Assembly (NCBI GenBank): GCA_022703055.1
Contig: JAKLEP010000001.1
Location: 474,850 to 538,849, forward strand
DNA length: 64,000 nt
DNA from: Candidatus Omnitrophota bacterium
GTDB lineage: Bacteria; Omnitrophota; Gorgyraeia; VGKH01
Direction of reading: 5' to 3'
Part shown: positions 1 through 45,465 of the stretch, piece after piece
How positions within the stretch are numbered: position 1 is the stretch's first letter
Layout: every line of letters begins with the position of its first letter
Position numbers and translations under genes: made by a program
The notes under the pieces: generated by a model
What the model was told of the DNA's origin: nothing
What the model saw: the letters and a program-made list of their open reading frames with translations, nothing else
Database searches by the model: none

Positions 1-258
1 GATGAGATTGCTCAAGAAGAATTTGAAAAGTTTTTGGTTGACCAAGGCGTGCCTCCAGAACAATATTATGAAGTTAGAGAGTTTTTTAAGTCATATCTTA
101 TTGATGAAGCTTTTAGAGTAGCCATAAATCAAAAAGAATTTAATAAATTCGCATCAAACCCTGTAATGATGGAAATTTTTCGTAAACTCGGACGCGAAAA
201 GATCCAAAATGTATCTGAATACATTAAAGACAATGTAATACTTAATATATTTAGTTAA
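1..258 (+). CDS. C-terminal fragment of an ORF continuing upstream of the window; possibly the R subunit of the adjacent type I R-M system
   Basis: Frame 1 is open from base 1 to TAA 256-258, which ends 2 nt before the methyltransferase start. Function is guessed from adjacency only; no catalytic motif is visible. Confidence 0.35.
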   Translation, partial: DEIAQEEFEKFLVDQGVPPEQYYEVREFFKSYLIDEAFRVAINQKEFNKFASNPVMMEIFRKLGREKIQNVSEYIKDNVILNIFS

Positions 259-260
259 AA

Positions 261-2240
261 ATGTTAAACGCAGAAACCAAACGAAAAATTGATGGCTTAC
301 GTGATACTTTAGTTGGCAAGATACCTGTGCCAACTGAGCAGGTTAAATTGATTACCCTTGGGCTTATTTACAAGTTTATGAGCGATATAGACCAGGAAAA
401 TAAAGAGCTAGGCGGCAAGTCGTTTTTTGCTGGAGAATACGAACAATACGCTTGGCATAAATTGATGGACAGGTCGCTTTCAAGCTATGAAAGGGTAGCA
501 ATATACTCGGAGGGCCTAGAAAAAATGGCTCTTAATCCTAATATCCCACAGCTTTTTAGAGATATTTTTAAAGGTGCATTTCTTCCCTTTAGGGATCCTG
601 CTACAGTAGATTTATTTTTGCGTGGCATTAACGATTTCCATTATGAACATAGCGAAGATTTAGGTGATGCCTTTGAATACCTAATTTCAATAATGGGTAC
701 ACAAGGCGAAGCAGGACAGTTTAGGACACCTCGCCATATTATTGACTTTATCGTAAAGGCCGTTGATCCACGAAAAACTGATACTGTTTTAGATCCTGCC
801 TGCGGCACAGCCGGATTCTTAATCTCTGCCTACAAACACATCCTTGAGCAAAACATGGATCCTCAATCAAAGAGGCCAGGTTCAGCTCTTACAACTGCAG
901 AAAGAAATAAATTAAGTAAAAATTTTGTTGGTTATGATATTTCTCACGATATGGTACGACTTTCTTTGGTAAATATGTACCTACATCAATTCGGAGATCC
1001 TAAAATTTACGAATACGATACGCTTACCAGCTTAGATCACTGGGAAGATAATTTCGATTGCATTTTAACCAATCCTCCTTTTATGACACCGAAGGGAGGA
1101 ATTAGACCGCACAAGAGGTTTGCTGTTAAGGCAAAGAAATCAGAAGTTTTATTTGTGGATTATGTTTTAGAGCATTTAAACAAAAGTTGTCGCGCTGGTA
1201 TCATTGTTCCTGAAGGAATAATTGAAAATGACGCTACAGCATACATCAGTTTAAGAAAAACCATGATCGATAGTAATTTTTTATATGCTATTATTTCCTT
1301 ACCCGTTGGGACATTTCAGCCGTATAGTGCAAACATAAAAACAAGTATTTTATTCTTTGACCGAATGTTGGCCGGTAGTACTAATACGTTATTGCATTTG
1401 AAAGTCGATCATGATGGGTTCGATTTAGGCAAAAATAGAAATCCTATTCAAGAAAATGACTTACCATTTATTCTTAGCGTTATAAAAAAATTTCAAAGCG
1501 ATATAGAAAGTAGACAATCGATAATAATACCTAAGCACCCCAAAGTTACTTTAATTGACAAAAATAAGATTAGAGAAAGAAATGATTATTCTTTAATGCT
1601 TAGGTATTATTTATTAAAAAAGCCTCAAAAAATTTCTGGCCAATGTGAAATGTTAGAGCTTGGCCAATTGTTCGACGTCAAAAAAGGAAGTTTACAGAGT
1701 TCTAAAAATACAGATGGCGAATACGATTTCATAACAGCATCAGAAACATGGAAAAAACATAATACCTATACACATGATTGTGAGGCTTTGCTTTTTGCAA
1801 TGGGTGCTTCAGGGTCTTTAGGAAGGACACATTATGTAAAAGGAAAATTTATTGCAAGCGATCTTTGTTTCATCTTGACTCCCAAAAAAGATTCCGATAG
1901 ACAAATTAATTTTAAGTTTTATTTCAAATATTTTACTCTACTGAGAGAAAAAGTAGTAAATGATATTGTTAAAGGTGCAGCAAAGAAAGCGATTAGTGCT
2001 AAGAATTTCAAAAAACATAAAGTACCATATCTCCCAATAGATACTCAAGAAAAAATTGTTAAAGAAATAGAGGATTTAGAGAATAAGATTAATAATGAAC
2101 AGGAAATAATAAATCGTCATTTAAATAGTATAGAAAGCTACAAAAATGACATCGAGAGGAAAATATTATCATCCTGGCAAATCGACCCCGGACCTTTTCC
2201 AGTTAAGAATGCTAGTAAGAAGATGGGTATTATAAATTAA
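261..2240 (+). CDS. hsdM: Type I R-M N6-adenine DNA methyltransferase (HsdM-like) fused to one HsdS-like target recognition domain plus helical spacer
   Basis: 659 aa. It has an HsdM-type N-terminus, GQFRTPRHII, motif I LDPACGTAGFL and motif IV TNPPF. The C-terminal ~190 aa (LELGQLFDVKKGS...ASDLCFILTPKK...IDTQEKIVKEIEDLENKI) resembles one HsdS TRD plus the conserved coiled-coil region. Confidence 0.85.
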   Translation: MLNAETKRKIDGLRDTLVGKIPVPTEQVKLITLGLIYKFMSDIDQENKELGGKSFFAGEYEQYAWHKLMDRSLSSYERVAIYSEGLEKMALNPNIPQLFRDIFKGAFLPFRDPATVDLFLRGINDFHYEHSEDLGDAFEYLISIMGTQGEAGQFRTPRHIIDFIVKAVDPRKTDTVLDPACGTAGFLISAYKHILEQNMDPQSKRPGSALTTAERNKLSKNFVGYDISHDMVRLSLVNMYLHQFGDPKIYEYDTLTSLDHWEDNFDCILTNPPFMTPKGGIRPHKRFAVKAKKSEVLFVDYVLEHLNKSCRAGIIVPEGIIENDATAYISLRKTMIDSNFLYAIISLPVGTFQPYSANIKTSILFFDRMLAGSTNTLLHLKVDHDGFDLGKNRNPIQENDLPFILSVIKKFQSDIESRQSIIIPKHPKVTLIDKNKIRERNDYSLMLRYYLLKKPQKISGQCEMLELGQLFDVKKGSLQSSKNTDGEYDFITASETWKKHNTYTHDCEALLFAMGASGSLGRTHYVKGKFIASDLCFILTPKKDSDRQINFKFYFKYFTLLREKVVNDIVKGAAKKAISAKNFKKHKVPYLPIDTQEKIVKEIEDLENKINNEQEIINRHLNSIESYKNDIERKILSSWQIDPGPFPVKNASKKMGIIN

Positions 2241-2269
2241 TTGACAATTTATATTAACTTTAATAGACT
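2241..2269 (+). promoter_or_regulatory. Candidate sigma70-type promoter for the small-ORF/PIN-PilZ pair
   Basis: TTGACA 2241-2246, 17-nt spacer, TAGACT 2264-2269, directly after the hsdM stop. Confidence 0.35.
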
Positions 2270-2290
2270 ATATTAAAAAGGGGGAGGAAA

Positions 2291-2464
2291 ATGAGTGGGG
2301 ATAGATTAGAAAAGCATAGAAAAGCAGAAAAAAGAGAAAATCCTAATGCTTTCTATGATTGGTTAAAAACTAATTGTCGTAAAGCTGTTCCTCATGAAGA
2401 GTTGAAAAGCCTGCCGGAAGAAAAGAAAAAAATCATAGAAGCAATCGTTTTAAAAAATTCTTAA
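2291..2464 (+). CDS. Small hypothetical protein (57 aa), candidate partner of the downstream PIN-PilZ protein
   Basis: ATG 2291 is preceded by GGGGGAGG (2280-2287). TAA 2462-2464 lies 3 nt before the next start. The ORF is below the ORF-track size cutoff. It translates as MSGDRLEKHRKAEKRENPNAFYDWLKTNCRKAVPHEELKSLPEEKKKIIEAIVLKNS. Confidence 0.45.
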   Translation: MSGDRLEKHRKAEKRENPNAFYDWLKTNCRKAVPHEELKSLPEEKKKIIEAIVLKNS

Positions 2465-2467
2465 TGA

Positions 2468-3331
2468 ATGATAATTGATTGCTTGCTTGATACAAATTCA
2501 ATTATAAAATTATATGTAGATATGAGGGGATCTGAAGTAGTAAGGCATCTCTACCAAAATCCTGCTGTACTTATCAATATTGCAAACACTCAAGTAGTTG
2601 AGGTTATCTCTCTTTTTTATAAGTTTAGAAGAGAAGGTGTATTTTCTAGCGATGAAGAAAGAACTAAATATGTCGATACTTTTTTAAAGGATATCTCTGA
2701 TAAAAAAATTGAAGTATATGATTTTGCAGATGAACACATTAAAGATTTTGAAGTATATGAAAAAATAACCAACATAAAACCTCCTTTTAAAAATCCAATT
2801 CGTCCTAAACAAGTTTTTATTCATAAATGGAATGCTTTTTTTAAAGAAGTAAAAGAGCCCGCAGACGGCATTGATACAATTATGCTATTAATAATGAGAG
2901 AAATGCATTTAATGACTCAAAAAGAAGCTTTTATTTTTTCTTCTGATGGACATGTTAAGAAAGTTGCTGAAGCTTTAGGTTTAAAAATTATAGACCCAGA
3001 ATCAAAGTCTTTGAGAGAATTGCCAGAAGAGTTATTGCGTTTTAGAAACAAAAGAGAAAATATTAATTTAAGAGCAATTTGTATAGATTGTGAAAGTTCA
3101 CTCCAACTAAATACATCCAGAGCAGTAAATATTTGTAAAGGTGGTTTATGCCTCGAAACAAGAAATTTATTAACAGTTGGTAAAAGATTAGATATTAGAA
3201 GACTAGAGTCTTATGATGGCTCAAAAACTATTGAAAATATTCCTTCGACTATTGTTTGGTATGATCAGCAAAAACAACAAGCAGGCTTAAAATTTCTGAA
3301 CGATTTTGATCATTCCGTTTTTCTTTCATAA
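2468..3331 (+). CDS. PIN-like nuclease domain fused to a C-terminal PilZ-like domain
   Basis: 287 aa. The PIN-type acidic residues fall in the expected contexts: D8 (LLDTN), E45 (QVVEVIS), D136 (GIDTIML) and D160 (FSSDGH). The C-terminus has RFRNKRENINLR, then 25 aa later NICKGGLCL, matching PilZ (D/N)xSxxG with S to C. The RxxxR motif is degenerate. Confidence 0.55.
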   Translation: MIIDCLLDTNSIIKLYVDMRGSEVVRHLYQNPAVLINIANTQVVEVISLFYKFRREGVFSSDEERTKYVDTFLKDISDKKIEVYDFADEHIKDFEVYEKITNIKPPFKNPIRPKQVFIHKWNAFFKEVKEPADGIDTIMLLIMREMHLMTQKEAFIFSSDGHVKKVAEALGLKIIDPESKSLRELPEELLRFRNKRENINLRAICIDCESSLQLNTSRAVNICKGGLCLETRNLLTVGKRLDIRRLESYDGSKTIENIPSTIVWYDQQKQQAGLKFLNDFDHSVFLS

Positions 3332-3368
3332 AAAAACTCAAAACAAAGAGACGGTCATATTTAATTTT

Positions 3369-3400
3369 TAGGGACGTTCCCCGAGTTGAACTTGAGGGAC
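3369..3400. repeat. Left copy of a 32-bp direct repeat bracketing the 3437-4045 gene
   Basis: TAGGGACGTTCCCCGAGTTGAACTTGAGGGAC matches 4057-4088 at 29 of 32 positions. It is followed by a small hairpin, AGGGAC-ctt-GTCCCT (3395-3409). Confidence 0.8.
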
Positions 3401-3436
3401 CTTGTCCCTATATGATTTGCGCACTAAATTTGTCAG

Positions 3437-4045
3437 ATGAAAAACATCAATATAAATATTATAAATACTGCTTGTAAGACAGGAAAATGGGATCTCGGTA
3501 ATGAAGTTTTATATTCCTTATGTAGAGAATACCCCTTTCATAAAAAAGACGGCGAAATTATTGCGAAGGTTTGGTTAATAGGAAGATCATACGCCGCTTC
3601 TATAGAACGTAGAAAAAATGCTAAGAGCAATAACGAAGAATTTTACGAATCAGAAGTTGTTCCAGCTATTAAAAATTCGAATATTGATTCCTGGCTATCC
3701 ATTACTTCTAAATTGCAAATTCCTGGAAGTGAAGAATCAGTTCTTGTTCACAAGAAACTAATGGATTTGTTTGCCTCGATATCTGGTCATAATAATAGGT
3801 CATTAGCGTCAAAGTATCTTCATTTTCACCAGCCAAAAGTATTTTTTATCTATGACAGCAGAGCAAGAAACGCCATTACAGAATATTGTCCTAAACTAAA
3901 CAAGATTGAAGATATCAATACTAAAGAATTTGATAAAGAGTATAAGGATTTTGTGAGAAAGTGCGTTTGGCTTAGGGGCCATATTAAGTCACTTTACGGA
4001 TTATCTCTTAAACCAAGAGAAATAGATAATTTCTTGTTAGGATAG
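3437..4045 (+). CDS. Hypothetical protein (202 aa), orphan gene between direct repeats
   Basis: The ORF is intact and AT-rich like the R-M islet. I cannot name a family with confidence. Motifs KVWLIGRSYAASIERR and ASKYLHFHQPKVFFIYDSRA are noted. Confidence 0.6.
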   Translation: MKNININIINTACKTGKWDLGNEVLYSLCREYPFHKKDGEIIAKVWLIGRSYAASIERRKNAKSNNEEFYESEVVPAIKNSNIDSWLSITSKLQIPGSEESVLVHKKLMDLFASISGHNNRSLASKYLHFHQPKVFFIYDSRARNAITEYCPKLNKIEDINTKEFDKEYKDFVRKCVWLRGHIKSLYGLSLKPREIDNFLLG

Positions 4046-4056
4046 AGTGATTAATC

Positions 4057-4088
4057 TAGGGACATTCCCCAAGTTGAACTTGAGGGCC
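4057..4088. repeat. Right copy of the 32-bp direct repeat
   Basis: TAGGGACATTCCCCAAGTTGAACTTGAGGGCC contains the 13-bp palindrome CAAGTTgAACTTG. It is followed by CCG-ctt-CGG plus a T-run (4090-4105). Confidence 0.8.
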
Positions 4089-4120
4089 CCCGCTTCGGAT
4101 TTTTGATGGAATTGAAAAAG

Positions 4121-32485: not shown

Positions 32486-32563
32486 TAAAACAATCGTAAT
32501 TAAACCTAATGGGTCCAGAAATGAATATTTTTTTCTGGAGGTTAAAATTTTGAGATGGTCGGG

Positions 32564-32601
32564 CCGCCATCTGCTAAAAAAGCAGATGGCGGTTTTATTT
32601 T
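32564..32601 (+). terminator. Strong rho-independent terminator
   Basis: 12-bp perfect stem CCGCCATCTGCT (32564-32575) / AGCAGATGGCGG (32581-32592), loop AAAAA, then TTTTATTTT. Confidence 0.8.
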
Positions 32602-37968: not shown

Positions 37969-37973
37969 AATAG

Positions 37974-38098
37974 CTACCTTCGGGAGAGGGGTGAAATTCC
38001 CGACTGGTGGTAAAGTCCACGAGATTCGACCAATCGTCGGATCAGACCAAGTGTAATTCTTGGACCAATAGTCACAGTCTAGATGGGAGAAGGTAAAA
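37974..38098 (+). promoter_or_regulatory. FMN riboswitch (RFN element)
   Basis: P1 is ACCTTC...GAAGGT. Hallmark segments are GGGGTGAAATTCCCGACTGGTGGTAAAGTCCAC, GACCAAGTGTAATTCTTGGACC and AGTCTAGATGGGAGAAGG. It lies directly upstream of ribBA. Confidence 0.9.
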
Positions 38099-45386: not shown

Positions 45387-45465
45387 CGGGGAGTGGCTCA
45401 GTTTGGCTTAGAGCGCTTGGTTCGGGACCAAGAGGTCGTGGGTTCAAGTCCCACCTCCCCGACCA
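45387..45465 (+). tRNA. tRNA-Pro (anticodon CGG), CCA encoded
   Basis: Acceptor CGGGGAG/CTCCCCG. D arm GCTC-AGTTTGGCTTA-GAGC. Anticodon arm CTTGG-TTCGGGA-CCAAG with G37. T arm GTGGG-TTCAAGT-CCCAC. Discriminator A plus CCA. Confidence 0.9.

What the first reader, a model, noticed from the sequence alone, without database searches (positions are those of the whole stretch)
2241..3331. Two-gene module: a 57-aa ORF plus a PIN-PilZ fusion protein embedded next to the type I R-M genes
The module sits directly after hsdM and has its own promoter-like site. An unannotated 57-aa ORF (2291-2464, strong SD) ends 3 nt before a 287-aa protein.

- **N-terminal half:** this has the four acidic residues of a PIN nuclease in the expected contexts (D8, E45, D136, D160).
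- **C-terminal ~95 aa:** this looks like a PilZ domain. NICKGG lies 25 aa after an Arg-rich RFRNKR segment.

The small-upstream-gene plus PIN layout resembles a VapBC toxin-antitoxin pair, but the small protein has no obvious RHH/AbrB/HTH fold. A PilZ fused to a PIN nuclease would imply nucleotide second-messenger control of an RNase in a defence context. I am not aware of a characterised example. The RxxxR motif is degenerate, so c-di-GMP binding is uncertain.
Basis: partly seen in the sequence, partly recalled or inferred. Interest (0 to 1): 0.6.

Follow-up and report, generated by a model that had tools for sequence, protein, structure and literature searches.

The report
PIN nuclease–PilZ fusion with tiny partner
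A two-gene cassette in an uncultured Omnitrophota bacterium encodes a 57-residue basic protein and a predicted RNA-cutting PIN enzyme fused to a PilZ (cyclic-di-GMP receptor) domain; this looks like a toxin–antitoxin pair that a bacterial second messenger might control, a combination I could not find described.

Summary
Both ORFs sit at the stated coordinates: 57 aa at 2291-2464 and 287 aa at 2468-3331. The domain reading is supported. No Pfam or PADLOC model hits the window protein directly. The evidence is indirect:
- Of 25 full-length relatives, 17 hit Pfam PilZ and 3 hit Pfam PIN models.
- Stand-alone relatives of the N-terminal half pass the PF01850 cut-off.
- The AlphaFold model matches PilZ structures (Alg44, YcgR, MapZ) and PIN structures (PAE0151, VapC, SMG6).
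- D8, E45 and D136 are invariant; D160 is kept in 23 of 25.

The 57-aa protein defines a new family of about 39 members. It lies directly upstream of the PIN–PilZ gene in all 26 loci where it could be checked. Nothing else is shared between loci, so this is a self-contained cassette. The type I R-M adjacency is specific to this lineage, although defence or mobile genes are frequent neighbours.

Most likely it is a VapBC-like toxin–antitoxin or abortive-infection module whose RNase is gated through the PilZ domain. c-di-GMP binding by this copy is uncertain: it has RFRNKR and NICKGG instead of RxxxR and [D/N]hSxxG, while 18 of 25 relatives keep RxxxR. Toxicity, neutralisation and ligand binding are untested. 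I rate it a new variant of a known kind.

The parts
2241..2269 (+). Sigma-70-like promoter site, TTGACA-17-TAGACT, directly after the hsdM-S stop codon
   Evidence: 10 of 12 matches. A comparable TTGAC[AT]-N16-18-TAnnnT site precedes the small gene in 11 of 23 related loci, against 3.4% of random windows.
2280..2287 (+). Shine-Dalgarno-like purine run (GGGGGAGG) ahead of the small ORF
   Evidence: Sequence. GGAGG-type sites precede the small gene in the other loci printed.
2291..2464 (+). 57-aa basic protein (pI 9.4) and founding member of a new small-protein family. It is the candidate antitoxin or inhibitor of the PIN–PilZ protein.
   Evidence: ORF. 39 homologues of 51-60 aa, plus one of 72 aa from an upstream alternative start. 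R15, N28 and C29 are invariant; W24 and L25 are nearly so. Present directly upstream of the PIN–PilZ gene in every locus with room. No Pfam, PDB-sequence or fold match. AF2 model pLDDT 76: an N-terminal coil followed by three short helices.
2468..3013 (+). PIN (VapC-like) nuclease domain, about aa 1-182 of the 287-aa protein. Predicted catalytic residues are D8 (2489-2491), E45 (2600-2602), D136 (2873-2875) and D160 (2945-2947). A variable, low-confidence insert spans aa 87-132.
   Evidence: Acidic residues conserved 25/25, 25/25, 25/25 and 23/25. Stand-alone relatives pass the PF01850 cut-off. Foldseek: 2fe1 E 4e-5, TM-score normalised to the target (TMt) 0.77; also VapC 5x3t and 3zvk, and SMG6. 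Model.
3014..3331 (+). Linker plus PilZ beta-barrel domain (about aa 183-287) and the stop codon. The Arg-rich segment RFRNKR is aa 191-196 (3038-3055). NICKGG is aa 221-226 (3128-3145).
   Evidence: TIGR02266 E 7e-5 on aa 206-279. PF07238 in 17 of 25 relatives. Foldseek matches to Alg44 (4rt1, E 2e-6, TMt 0.68), YcgR, MapZ, PlzD and BcsA. R196 and G226 are invariant; R at position 192 in 18 of 25 relatives but F in the window.
3395..3419 (+). Terminator-like hairpin (AGGGACCTTGTCCCT) with a T-rich tail, downstream of the module
   Evidence: It lies inside a 33-nt element that is repeated at 4057-4089.

Best explanation
**What it is**
The locus is an autonomous, horizontally mobile two-gene cassette with its own promoter. 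It has two parts:
- a 57-aa basic protein;
- a VapC-like PIN ribonuclease fused through a short Arg-rich linker to a PilZ beta-barrel. Its translation is probably coupled to that of the small gene.

**How it probably works**
- The PIN domain is a latent toxic RNase.
- The small protein is its dedicated inhibitor, in the sense of an antitoxin, although it belongs to no known antitoxin family.
- The PilZ domain is a regulatory input. The ligand-binding motif sits in the PIN–PilZ interdomain linker, as it does in YcgR/PlzD-type receptors. Binding of c-di-GMP or a related ligand there would reposition the barrel against the PIN active site and switch the nuclease on or off.
- The cassette would then act as a toxin–antitoxin, abortive-infection or growth-arrest module that reads the cell's second-messenger state.

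**Shown here**
- The gene pair and its strict co-conservation.
- The PIN and PilZ assignments.
- Conservation of the catalytic acids and of R196 and G226.
- Variable genomic contexts, often with defence or mobile genes.

**Inferred**
- RNase toxicity.
- Neutralisation by the small protein.
- Ligand identity and the direction of regulation.
For: **The pair**
- ORFs and spacing.
- 10 close and at least 25 full-length homologues with the same two-domain length.
- The small gene is immediately upstream, with a 3-nt gap or a 1-14-nt overlap, in 11 loci and in 15 of 15 further loci with room.
- Only these two genes are shared across 23 loci.

**PIN**
- D8, E45 and D136 conserved 25/25; D160 23/25.
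- Transitive PF01850 hits on stand-alone relatives: 53, 35 and 31 bits against a 23.6-bit cut-off.
- Direct PIN_12, PIN_4 and PIN hits in 3 full-length members.
- Fold matches to PAE0151, VapC and SMG6.

**PilZ**
- PF07238 in 17 of 25 members and TIGR02266 in 13 of 25.
- Fold matches to c-di-GMP-bound PilZ structures.
- R196 and G226 are invariant. The canonical R192xxxR196 is present in 18 of 25. [D/N]h[S/C]xxG is present in 25 of 25.
- The motif definitions, and the point that c-di-GMP binds the inter-domain linker in two-domain PilZ proteins, come from bioRxiv 10.1101/814665.

**Autonomy and mobility**
- GC is about 29% in the module against about 48% in the flanking genome.
- A conserved promoter-like site is present in 11 of 23 loci.
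- Neighbours include type I R-M (window), GmrSD/HEC-06 (PADLOC E 2e-95; three loci), C5 DNA methylases, a GHKL ATPase, an integrase and Bro-N.

**Other**
- Charges are complementary: small protein pI 9.4, PIN domain pI 6.0.
- Stand-alone PIN relatives also carry tiny basic upstream partners that overlap the PIN gene.
Against: - The window protein gets no direct hit to any PIN or PilZ model in Pfam at E <= 1, and none in PADLOC.
- In the window protein and its nearest clade the first PilZ motif is RFRNKR (RxRxxR), not RxxxR, and the Ser of the second motif is Cys. c-di-GMP binding by this copy may be weakened or lost.
- The small protein has no detectable DNA-binding or known antitoxin fold, and no conserved operator palindrome was seen.
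- No diguanylate cyclase or other nucleotide cyclase is linked to the cassette in 23 loci. No GGDEF motif was found in the 64-kb window.
- Several loci lie among housekeeping genes.
- The interdomain geometry of the model is uncertain (pTM 0.53).
- A co-fold of the pair could not be run.
Confidence: 0.45

Rival explanations
1. This is a plain VapBC-like toxin–antitoxin module in which the PilZ barrel no longer senses c-di-GMP, at least in this clade. The barrel instead serves as a structural, oligomerisation, protein-docking or RNA-binding appendage of the PIN toxin.
For: - The window clade lacks the canonical RxxxR (F192; RFRNKR) and has Cys in place of the motif-2 Ser.
- Pfam PilZ fails on the window protein.
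- PilZ domains that have lost their motifs and act through protein contacts are documented (bioRxiv 10.1101/814665).
- No cyclase is linked to the cassette.
Against: - R196, G226, the D/N and the hydrophobic h position are kept in all 25 members, and 18 of 25 keep the full RxxxR. That pattern suggests selection for ligand binding across the family.
- The window copy still has three Arg and one Lys within six residues at the motif site.
Confidence: 0.3
2. This is not a toxin system. The PIN–PilZ protein is a non-toxic, second-messenger-regulated RNA-processing or RNA-decay enzyme, and the small basic protein is a cofactor, substrate adaptor or RNA-binding partner.
For: - Some loci sit among housekeeping genes (L005 next to hrcA-grpE-dnaK; L016 next to acetyl-CoA pathway genes).
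- The small protein resembles no known antitoxin.
- PIN domains also act in RNA maturation (general knowledge; classification in PMC5499597).
Against: - Distribution is patchy and apparently confined to a few lineages; the two organism-named genome hits are both Omnitrophota. GC is atypically low and contexts vary, often with defence or mobile genes.
- One copy is frameshifted (L023).
- These are features of accessory selfish or defence cassettes rather than core RNA metabolism.
Confidence: 0.15
3. The pair is a functional accessory of the adjacent type I restriction-modification system, for example a regulator or an extra effector of HsdR/HsdM-S.
For: In the window it lies immediately after hsdM-S on the same strand.
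Against: - The R-M genes accompany the pair only in this lineage.
- Across 23 loci, only the two genes of the pair are shared.
- The pair has its own promoter-like site.
- Its GC is lower than that of the R-M genes.
Confidence: 0.03

Closest known systems
VapBC type II toxin–antitoxin modules (PIN-domain toxin VapC, Pfam PF01850)
   Same: - A small upstream gene is tightly coupled to a PIN-domain gene.
- All four catalytic acidic residues are conserved.
- The fold matches VapC and PAE0151 structures.
- The cassette is mobile and sits in variable contexts.
   Different: - The upstream protein is only 57 aa, is basic, and has no RHH, AbrB, Phd/YefM or HTH similarity.
- The toxin carries a C-terminal PilZ domain.
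- The PIN domain has a variable insert of about 45 aa.
- The window protein is too divergent to hit PF01850 directly.
Two-domain PilZ c-di-GMP receptors (YcgR, PlzD/VCA0042, MotI)
   Same: - A C-terminal canonical-type PilZ barrel.
- The Arg motif lies in the linker to an N-terminal domain, the arrangement that gives ligand-induced domain closure in those proteins.
   Different: - The N-terminal partner domain is an enzyme (a PIN nuclease), not a PilZN or xPilZ domain.
- The outputs of the known receptors are motility or secretion machinery, not RNA cleavage.
- The motifs in this copy are RFRNKR and NICKGG.
Nucleotide-activated defence effectors: CBASS TIR–STING (which senses c-di-GMP), and Cap4/NucC and type III CRISPR Csm6/Can nucleases. 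This comparison rests on my own knowledge, not on a tool result.
   Same: - The concept of a nuclease or toxic effector fused to a cyclic-nucleotide sensor domain.
- Frequent location in defence islands.
   Different: - The sensor is PilZ rather than STING, SAVED or CARF.
- No dedicated cyclase gene accompanies the cassette in any of 23 loci.
- A small partner protein is present instead.

Membership tests
PIN domain superfamily (VapC-like, PF01850) | Three-layer alpha/beta/alpha fold with a parallel beta-sheet | tested here: met
   The AF2 model matches PAE0151 (2fe1, E 4e-5, TM-score normalised to the target 0.77), VapC (5x3t, 3zvk), AF0591 and the SMG6 PIN domain. pLDDT is low in the insert at aa 87-132.
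PIN domain superfamily (VapC-like, PF01850) | Four conserved acidic residues at the ends of beta1, in alpha3, after beta4 and after beta5 | tested here: met
   D8, E45 and D136 in 25 of 25 and D160 in 23 of 25 full-length homologues. Their positions agree with the secondary structure of the model.
PIN domain superfamily (VapC-like, PF01850) | Profile-HMM match above the curated threshold | tested here: inconclusive
   The window protein has no hit at E <= 1. Three full-length relatives hit PIN_12, PIN_4 and PIN at 3e-6 to 1e-5. Stand-alone relatives found with the family profile score 30-53 bits against a 23.6-bit cut-off.
PIN domain superfamily (VapC-like, PF01850) | Metal-dependent ribonuclease activity | not testable with these tools
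   Needs in vitro RNase assays.
PilZ domain (PF07238) | Six-stranded beta-barrel fold | tested here: met
   Foldseek matches: Alg44 PilZ (4rt1, 4rt0, 4xrn; E about 2e-6; TM-score normalised to the target 0.64-0.70), BcsA, YcgR, MotI, PlzD, MapZ and PA0012. pLDDT is 83-89 over aa 200-280.
PilZ domain (PF07238) | RxxxR motif in the N-terminal loop | tested here: not met
   The window has R191-F-R193-N-K-R196, so there is no Arg pair at i/i+4. 18 of 25 relatives have R192xxxR196, and R196 is invariant.
PilZ domain (PF07238) | [D/N]hSxxG motif | tested here: inconclusive
   The window has N-I-C-K-G-G, with D/N, h and G kept and Ser replaced by Cys. Across the family D/N is 25 of 25, G is 25 of 25, and the third position is Ser in 10 and Cys in 15.
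PilZ domain (PF07238) | Profile-HMM match | tested here: inconclusive
   The window protein has no PF07238 hit at E <= 1. The PilZ-type model TIGR02266 scores E 7e-5, below its cut-off. 17 of 25 relatives hit PF07238, best E 5.6e-11.
PilZ domain (PF07238) | Binds c-di-GMP | not testable with these tools
   Needs DRaCALA or ITC.
Type II toxin–antitoxin system (VapBC type) | Small antitoxin gene immediately upstream of the toxin gene and co-transcribed or translationally coupled with it | tested here: met
   There is a 3-nt gap in the window and a 1-14-nt overlap or a gap of a few nt elsewhere. The small gene is present in all 26 loci that could be checked.
Type II toxin–antitoxin system (VapBC type) | Antitoxin with a recognisable DNA-binding domain (RHH, AbrB, Phd/YefM, HTH) | tested here: not met
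   No Pfam family across 38 members. No PDB sequence match. No Foldseek match to the AF2 model.
Type II toxin–antitoxin system (VapBC type) | Toxin inhibits growth and the antitoxin neutralises it by direct binding | not testable with these tools
Experiments are needed.
Cyclic-nucleotide defence systems (CBASS, Pycsar, type III CRISPR-like) | A dedicated nucleotide cyclase or synthase encoded with the effector | tested here: not met
   No gene other than the pair is shared across 23 loci. The annotated neighbours include no cyclase.

The most novel reading that the evidence does not exclude
The cassette is the first PilZ-gated nuclease. In this reading it is a toxin–antitoxin or abortive-infection module whose PIN RNase is switched by the cell's global c-di-GMP pool, or by another nucleotide read by a variant PilZ, and is restrained by a new 57-aa inhibitor family. 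That would link lifestyle second-messenger signalling directly to RNA cleavage and possibly to phage defence, with no dedicated cyclase.
Probability: 0.35. Interest if true: 0.75.

Novelty: new variant of a known kind. Interest (0 to 1): 0.6.

Why it matters
**For c-di-GMP signalling.** Known PilZ outputs are motility, secretion, polysaccharide synthesis and chaperones. I found no PIN or other nuclease partner in a census of PilZ-related domains, in the PIN-superfamily classification, or in full-text searches. A nuclease under PilZ control would add RNA decay or growth arrest to the c-di-GMP output repertoire.

**For toxin–antitoxin and defence biology.** It would be a toxin with a built-in small-molecule sensor and a new, very small partner family.

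**Testability.** The system is only two genes and about 1.1 kb, so it can be tested directly in E. coli.

**Limits.** The family is small (about 40-50 sequences) and appears confined to uncultured Omnitrophota-like bacteria. The ligand-binding motif is degenerate in the copy in this window.

Tried and rejected
**Searches that returned nothing useful**
- Direct Pfam, PADLOC and NCBIfam scans of both proteins gave only the sub-threshold TIGR02266 hit.
- phmmer and profile searches against PDB sequences gave only chance hits: full protein, family profile, PilZ-only profile and small-protein profile. The LRR and RluF hits to the PilZ profile are spurious.
- The small-protein AF2 model had no Foldseek match in the PDB.
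- The viral structure library gave only generic PIN and PilZ-like hits.
- tblastn against phage and plasmid collections, and a viral-contig scan, found no match. The cassette is therefore not known to be phage- or plasmid-borne.
- Rfam found no RNA family in or near the module.
- A GGDEF, EAL and HD-GYP motif scan of all window ORFs of at least 150 aa found nothing. Whether the host makes c-di-GMP is not settled. A relative's contig, L005, does encode a GAF-GGDEF protein.

**Jobs that could not be run**

**Ideas tested and dropped**
- A conserved operator palindrome upstream of the small gene: nothing was shared between loci.
- P0024 as a natural PIN-only variant with the 57-aa partner: it is a frameshifted PIN–PilZ gene.
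- A functional link to the type I R-M system: the adjacency is not conserved.
Full report
**1. The observation**

The two ORFs exist as described. A 57-aa ORF lies at 2291-2464 and a 287-aa ORF at 2468-3331, both on the + strand. They are in the same frame, separated by TAA TGA. A GGGGGAGG run precedes the first ATG. There is no Shine-Dalgarno site before the second ATG, so I infer that translation of the large protein is coupled to the small ORF.

TTGACA-17-TAGACT at 2241-2269 begins one base after the stop of the upstream gene. The upstream gene (261-2240) is an HsdM–HsdS fusion with N6_Mtase and Methylase_S domains. On the longer public contig an 838-aa HsdR-like gene precedes it. Its tail is the ORF at window 34-258.

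Window positions 1-4100 are at 29-39% GC, against about 48% further on. The module itself is the lowest, at about 29%.

**2. Domain identity of the 287-aa protein**

Direct profile searches fail. Pfam and PADLOC give nothing. NCBIfam gives only TIGR02266, a PilZ-type paralogous domain model, at E 7e-5 over aa 206-279, which is below its cut-off. PDB sequence searches are empty.

Homologues settle the question.
- **Family.** The word-indexed search found 10 proteins of 282-290 aa at 37-99% identity. The closest is from a Candidatus Omnitrophica MAG. The exhaustive profile search found 207 hits. They include about 20 full-length two-domain proteins and many stand-alone proteins of 150-190 aa that match only the N-terminal half.
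- **PIN by sequence.** The stand-alone proteins pass the PF01850 gathering score: P0065 53 bits, P0054 35, P0038 31, against a 23.6-bit cut-off. Among 25 full-length members, 3 hit PIN_12, PIN_4 or PIN directly.
- **PilZ by sequence.** 17 of the 25 hit PF07238, best E 5.6e-11. 13 hit TIGR02266.
- **Fold.** The AlphaFold2 model has mean pLDDT 76.6, is low only in aa 87-132, and has pTM 0.53. Its C-terminal part matches PilZ structures: Alg44 at E 2e-6 with a TM-score normalised to the target (TMt) of 0.68-0.70, and also YcgR, MotI, PlzD, MapZ, BcsA and PA0012. Its N-terminal part matches PIN structures: PAE0151 at E 4e-5 with TMt 0.77, and also VapC 5x3t and 3zvk, AF0591 and SMG6.
- **Catalytic residues.** In the 25-sequence alignment D8, E45 and D136 are invariant and D160 is kept in 23 of 25. 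They sit where PIN catalytic residues belong in the model's secondary structure.

**3. The PilZ ligand motifs**

PilZ binds c-di-GMP through RxxxR and [D/N]hSxxG (bioRxiv 10.1101/814665). Across the family R196 and G226 are invariant. Position 221 is always D or N, and position 222 is always hydrophobic. Position 223 is Ser in 10 and Cys in 15. Position 192 is Arg in 18 of 25, which gives a canonical R192xxxR196.

The window protein and its six nearest relatives in that alignment lack R192. The window has F at that position, although R191 and R193 flank it (RFRNKR). Its second motif reads NICKGG. The family as a whole therefore looks like a ligand-binding PilZ lineage, but this copy is a motif variant whose binding cannot be predicted.

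The motif lies in the PIN–PilZ linker (…DPE…LP…RxxxR…). This is the arrangement in which c-di-GMP closes two domains together in YcgR/PlzD-type proteins (plus general knowledge of those structures).

**4. The 57-aa protein**

It is a real, conserved gene. There are 39 homologues, nearly all of 51-60 aa, at 33-73% identity. R15, N28 and C29 are invariant, and D4, L6, R10, F21, W24, L25, A32 and I49 are nearly so. It is basic (pI 9.4), while the PIN domain is acidic (pI 6.0).

AF2 predicts a basic N-terminal coil followed by three short helices, with pLDDT 76. It matches no Pfam family, no PDB sequence and no PDB fold.

It lies immediately upstream of the PIN–PilZ gene in every locus examined.
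- Eleven loci came from look-ups and the genome scan. Two of the small ORFs there were not called by gene finders, one of them with a GTG start.
- A further 15 of 15 metagenome loci with upstream sequence also carry it.
- The apparent PIN-only partner, P0024, is a frameshifted PIN–PilZ gene.

Genuine stand-alone PIN relatives (L021, L024, L042) have a different tiny Lys/Arg-rich upstream partner. Those partners share an AR.IT…S.S motif and overlap the PIN gene. Small basic upstream partners are therefore a trait of this whole PIN clade. The 57-aa family is specific to the PilZ-fused branch.

**5. Autonomy and context**

Clustering all ORFs around the pair in 23 loci shows that only the two genes are universally shared. 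A strict TTGAC[AT]-N16-18-TAnnnT site precedes the small gene in 11 of 23 loci, against 3.4% of random windows.

Contexts differ between loci:
- type I R-M in the window;
- GmrSD/HEC-06, PADLOC E 2e-95, in three loci;
- C5 DNA methylases in L035 and L038, a GHKL ATPase in L040, an integrase in L027 and Bro-N in L034;
- a Ymh/HEPN-like gene in L018;
- plain housekeeping neighbours in L005 and L016.

An SDH_protease/NfeD-like gene plus a small ORF of about 60 aa precedes the pair in six loci. The five loci where it is directly adjacent lack the promoter-like site, which suggests a four-gene operon in that subclade.

The two genome hits that carry an organism name are both Omnitrophota. No phage, plasmid or viral-contig copy was found. 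No cyclase accompanies the cassette.

**6. Interpretation**

The best-supported reading is a mobile VapBC-like cassette. Its PIN toxin has acquired a PilZ sensor, and its small partner is a new kind of inhibitor.

The assignments and the co-conservation are shown. Toxicity, neutralisation, ligand identity and the sign of regulation are inferred.

The main rival is that PilZ has lost c-di-GMP sensing in this clade and serves another role. A second rival is a non-toxic regulated RNA-processing enzyme. A functional link to the neighbouring R-M system is rejected, because the adjacency is not conserved.

**7. Novelty**

Full-text searches found no description of a PIN–PilZ protein, and none of a PilZ-controlled nuclease or toxin. 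The PIN-superfamily classification does not mention PilZ or c-di-GMP. The census of PilZ-related domains lists no nuclease partner.

I rate it a new variant of a known kind. Interest is moderate to high because the system is small and directly testable. It is limited by the small, uncultured-lineage distribution and the degenerate motif in this copy.

Noticed in passing
window 3369-3401 and 4057-4089 (L001 11079-11111 and 11767-11799): A 33-nt direct repeat (91% identical; TAGGGACGTTCCCCGAGTTGAACTTGAGGGACC) brackets the downstream 202-aa gene at 3437-4045. That gene has a weak precomputed HI_0787_N hit and no hit in our Pfam or PADLOC copies. The first copy overlaps the terminator-like hairpin at 3395-3409. 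The 202-aa gene may be a separately inserted cassette, or the repeat may be a REP-like intergenic element.
   Followed up: partly
window 34-2240: The neighbouring restriction system has a fused HsdM–HsdS subunit: 659 aa, with N6_Mtase plus a single Methylase_S target-recognition domain. The tail of an 838-aa HsdR-like helicase-nuclease precedes it at 34-258.
   Followed up: partly
window 1-4100; L001 4000-11900: A low-GC island (29-39% against about 48%) of roughly 8 kb carries ORF6N, GIY-YIG, HsdR, HsdM-S, the pair and the 202-aa gene. GC is lowest (about 29%) over the pair and the S-domain end of hsdM-S. No tRNA or obvious att repeat marks the borders.
   Followed up: partly
L010 1207-2293; L011 252-1404; L020 1533-2652; L018 3935-5018; L039 4585-5559; L041 1-393: An SDH_protease (PF01972) / NfeD1b_N serine-protease gene recurs upstream of the pair in 6 of 23 loci. 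In four of these loci an annotated 54-63-aa ORF follows it. The protease has no PADLOC hit. Where it is directly adjacent, the pair lacks its own promoter-like site. This may be a four-gene operon, and the protease could act on the small protein.
   Followed up: partly
L007 396-2120; L034 737-2404; L038 2876-5772; L035 3166-5248: In a subclade the pair lies directly downstream of a GmrSD/HEC-06 type IV restriction gene. In L038 a C5 cytosine methylase also precedes it. L035 has two C5 methylases nearby.
   Followed up: partly
L021 1935-2147; L024 3859-4008; L042 5829-6035: Stand-alone PIN relatives of the N-terminal domain have their own conserved tiny Lys/Arg-rich upstream partner. These partners share an 'AR.IT..(I/L)..S.S' motif and overlap the PIN start. 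They appear to form a second uncharacterised small-partner family.
   Followed up: partly
window 2291-2464 (alignment A6): The small protein shows a His/Cys pattern that shifts between subgroups. All have H9 and C29. H30 or H31 is present in most. One subgroup has a C-terminal Cys (DDxC) and another has CC at positions 11-12. This might be a metal site. It was not tested.
   Followed up: no
L023 370-1200: One family member is split by a frameshift. The PIN part is called as a 188-aa protein, and the PilZ part reads on in another frame. It is either a pseudogene or an assembly error.
   Followed up: yes
L001 4679-4703 and 4958-4982 (outside the window, upstream): 25-nt inverted repeats (84% complementary) flank an 84-aa GIY-YIG ORF. 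This is possibly a small mobile element.
   Followed up: no
window 37972-38098; 32511-32572; 45387-45462: Rfam finds an FMN riboswitch, an nhaA-I RNA and a tRNA elsewhere in the window. They are unrelated to the finding. No c-di-GMP riboswitch was found.
   Followed up: no
window 2307-2340: A short 10-nt tandem repeat (AAAAGCAGAA, about 3 copies) lies inside the small ORF. It encodes the basic EKHRKAEKRE stretch.
   Followed up: no
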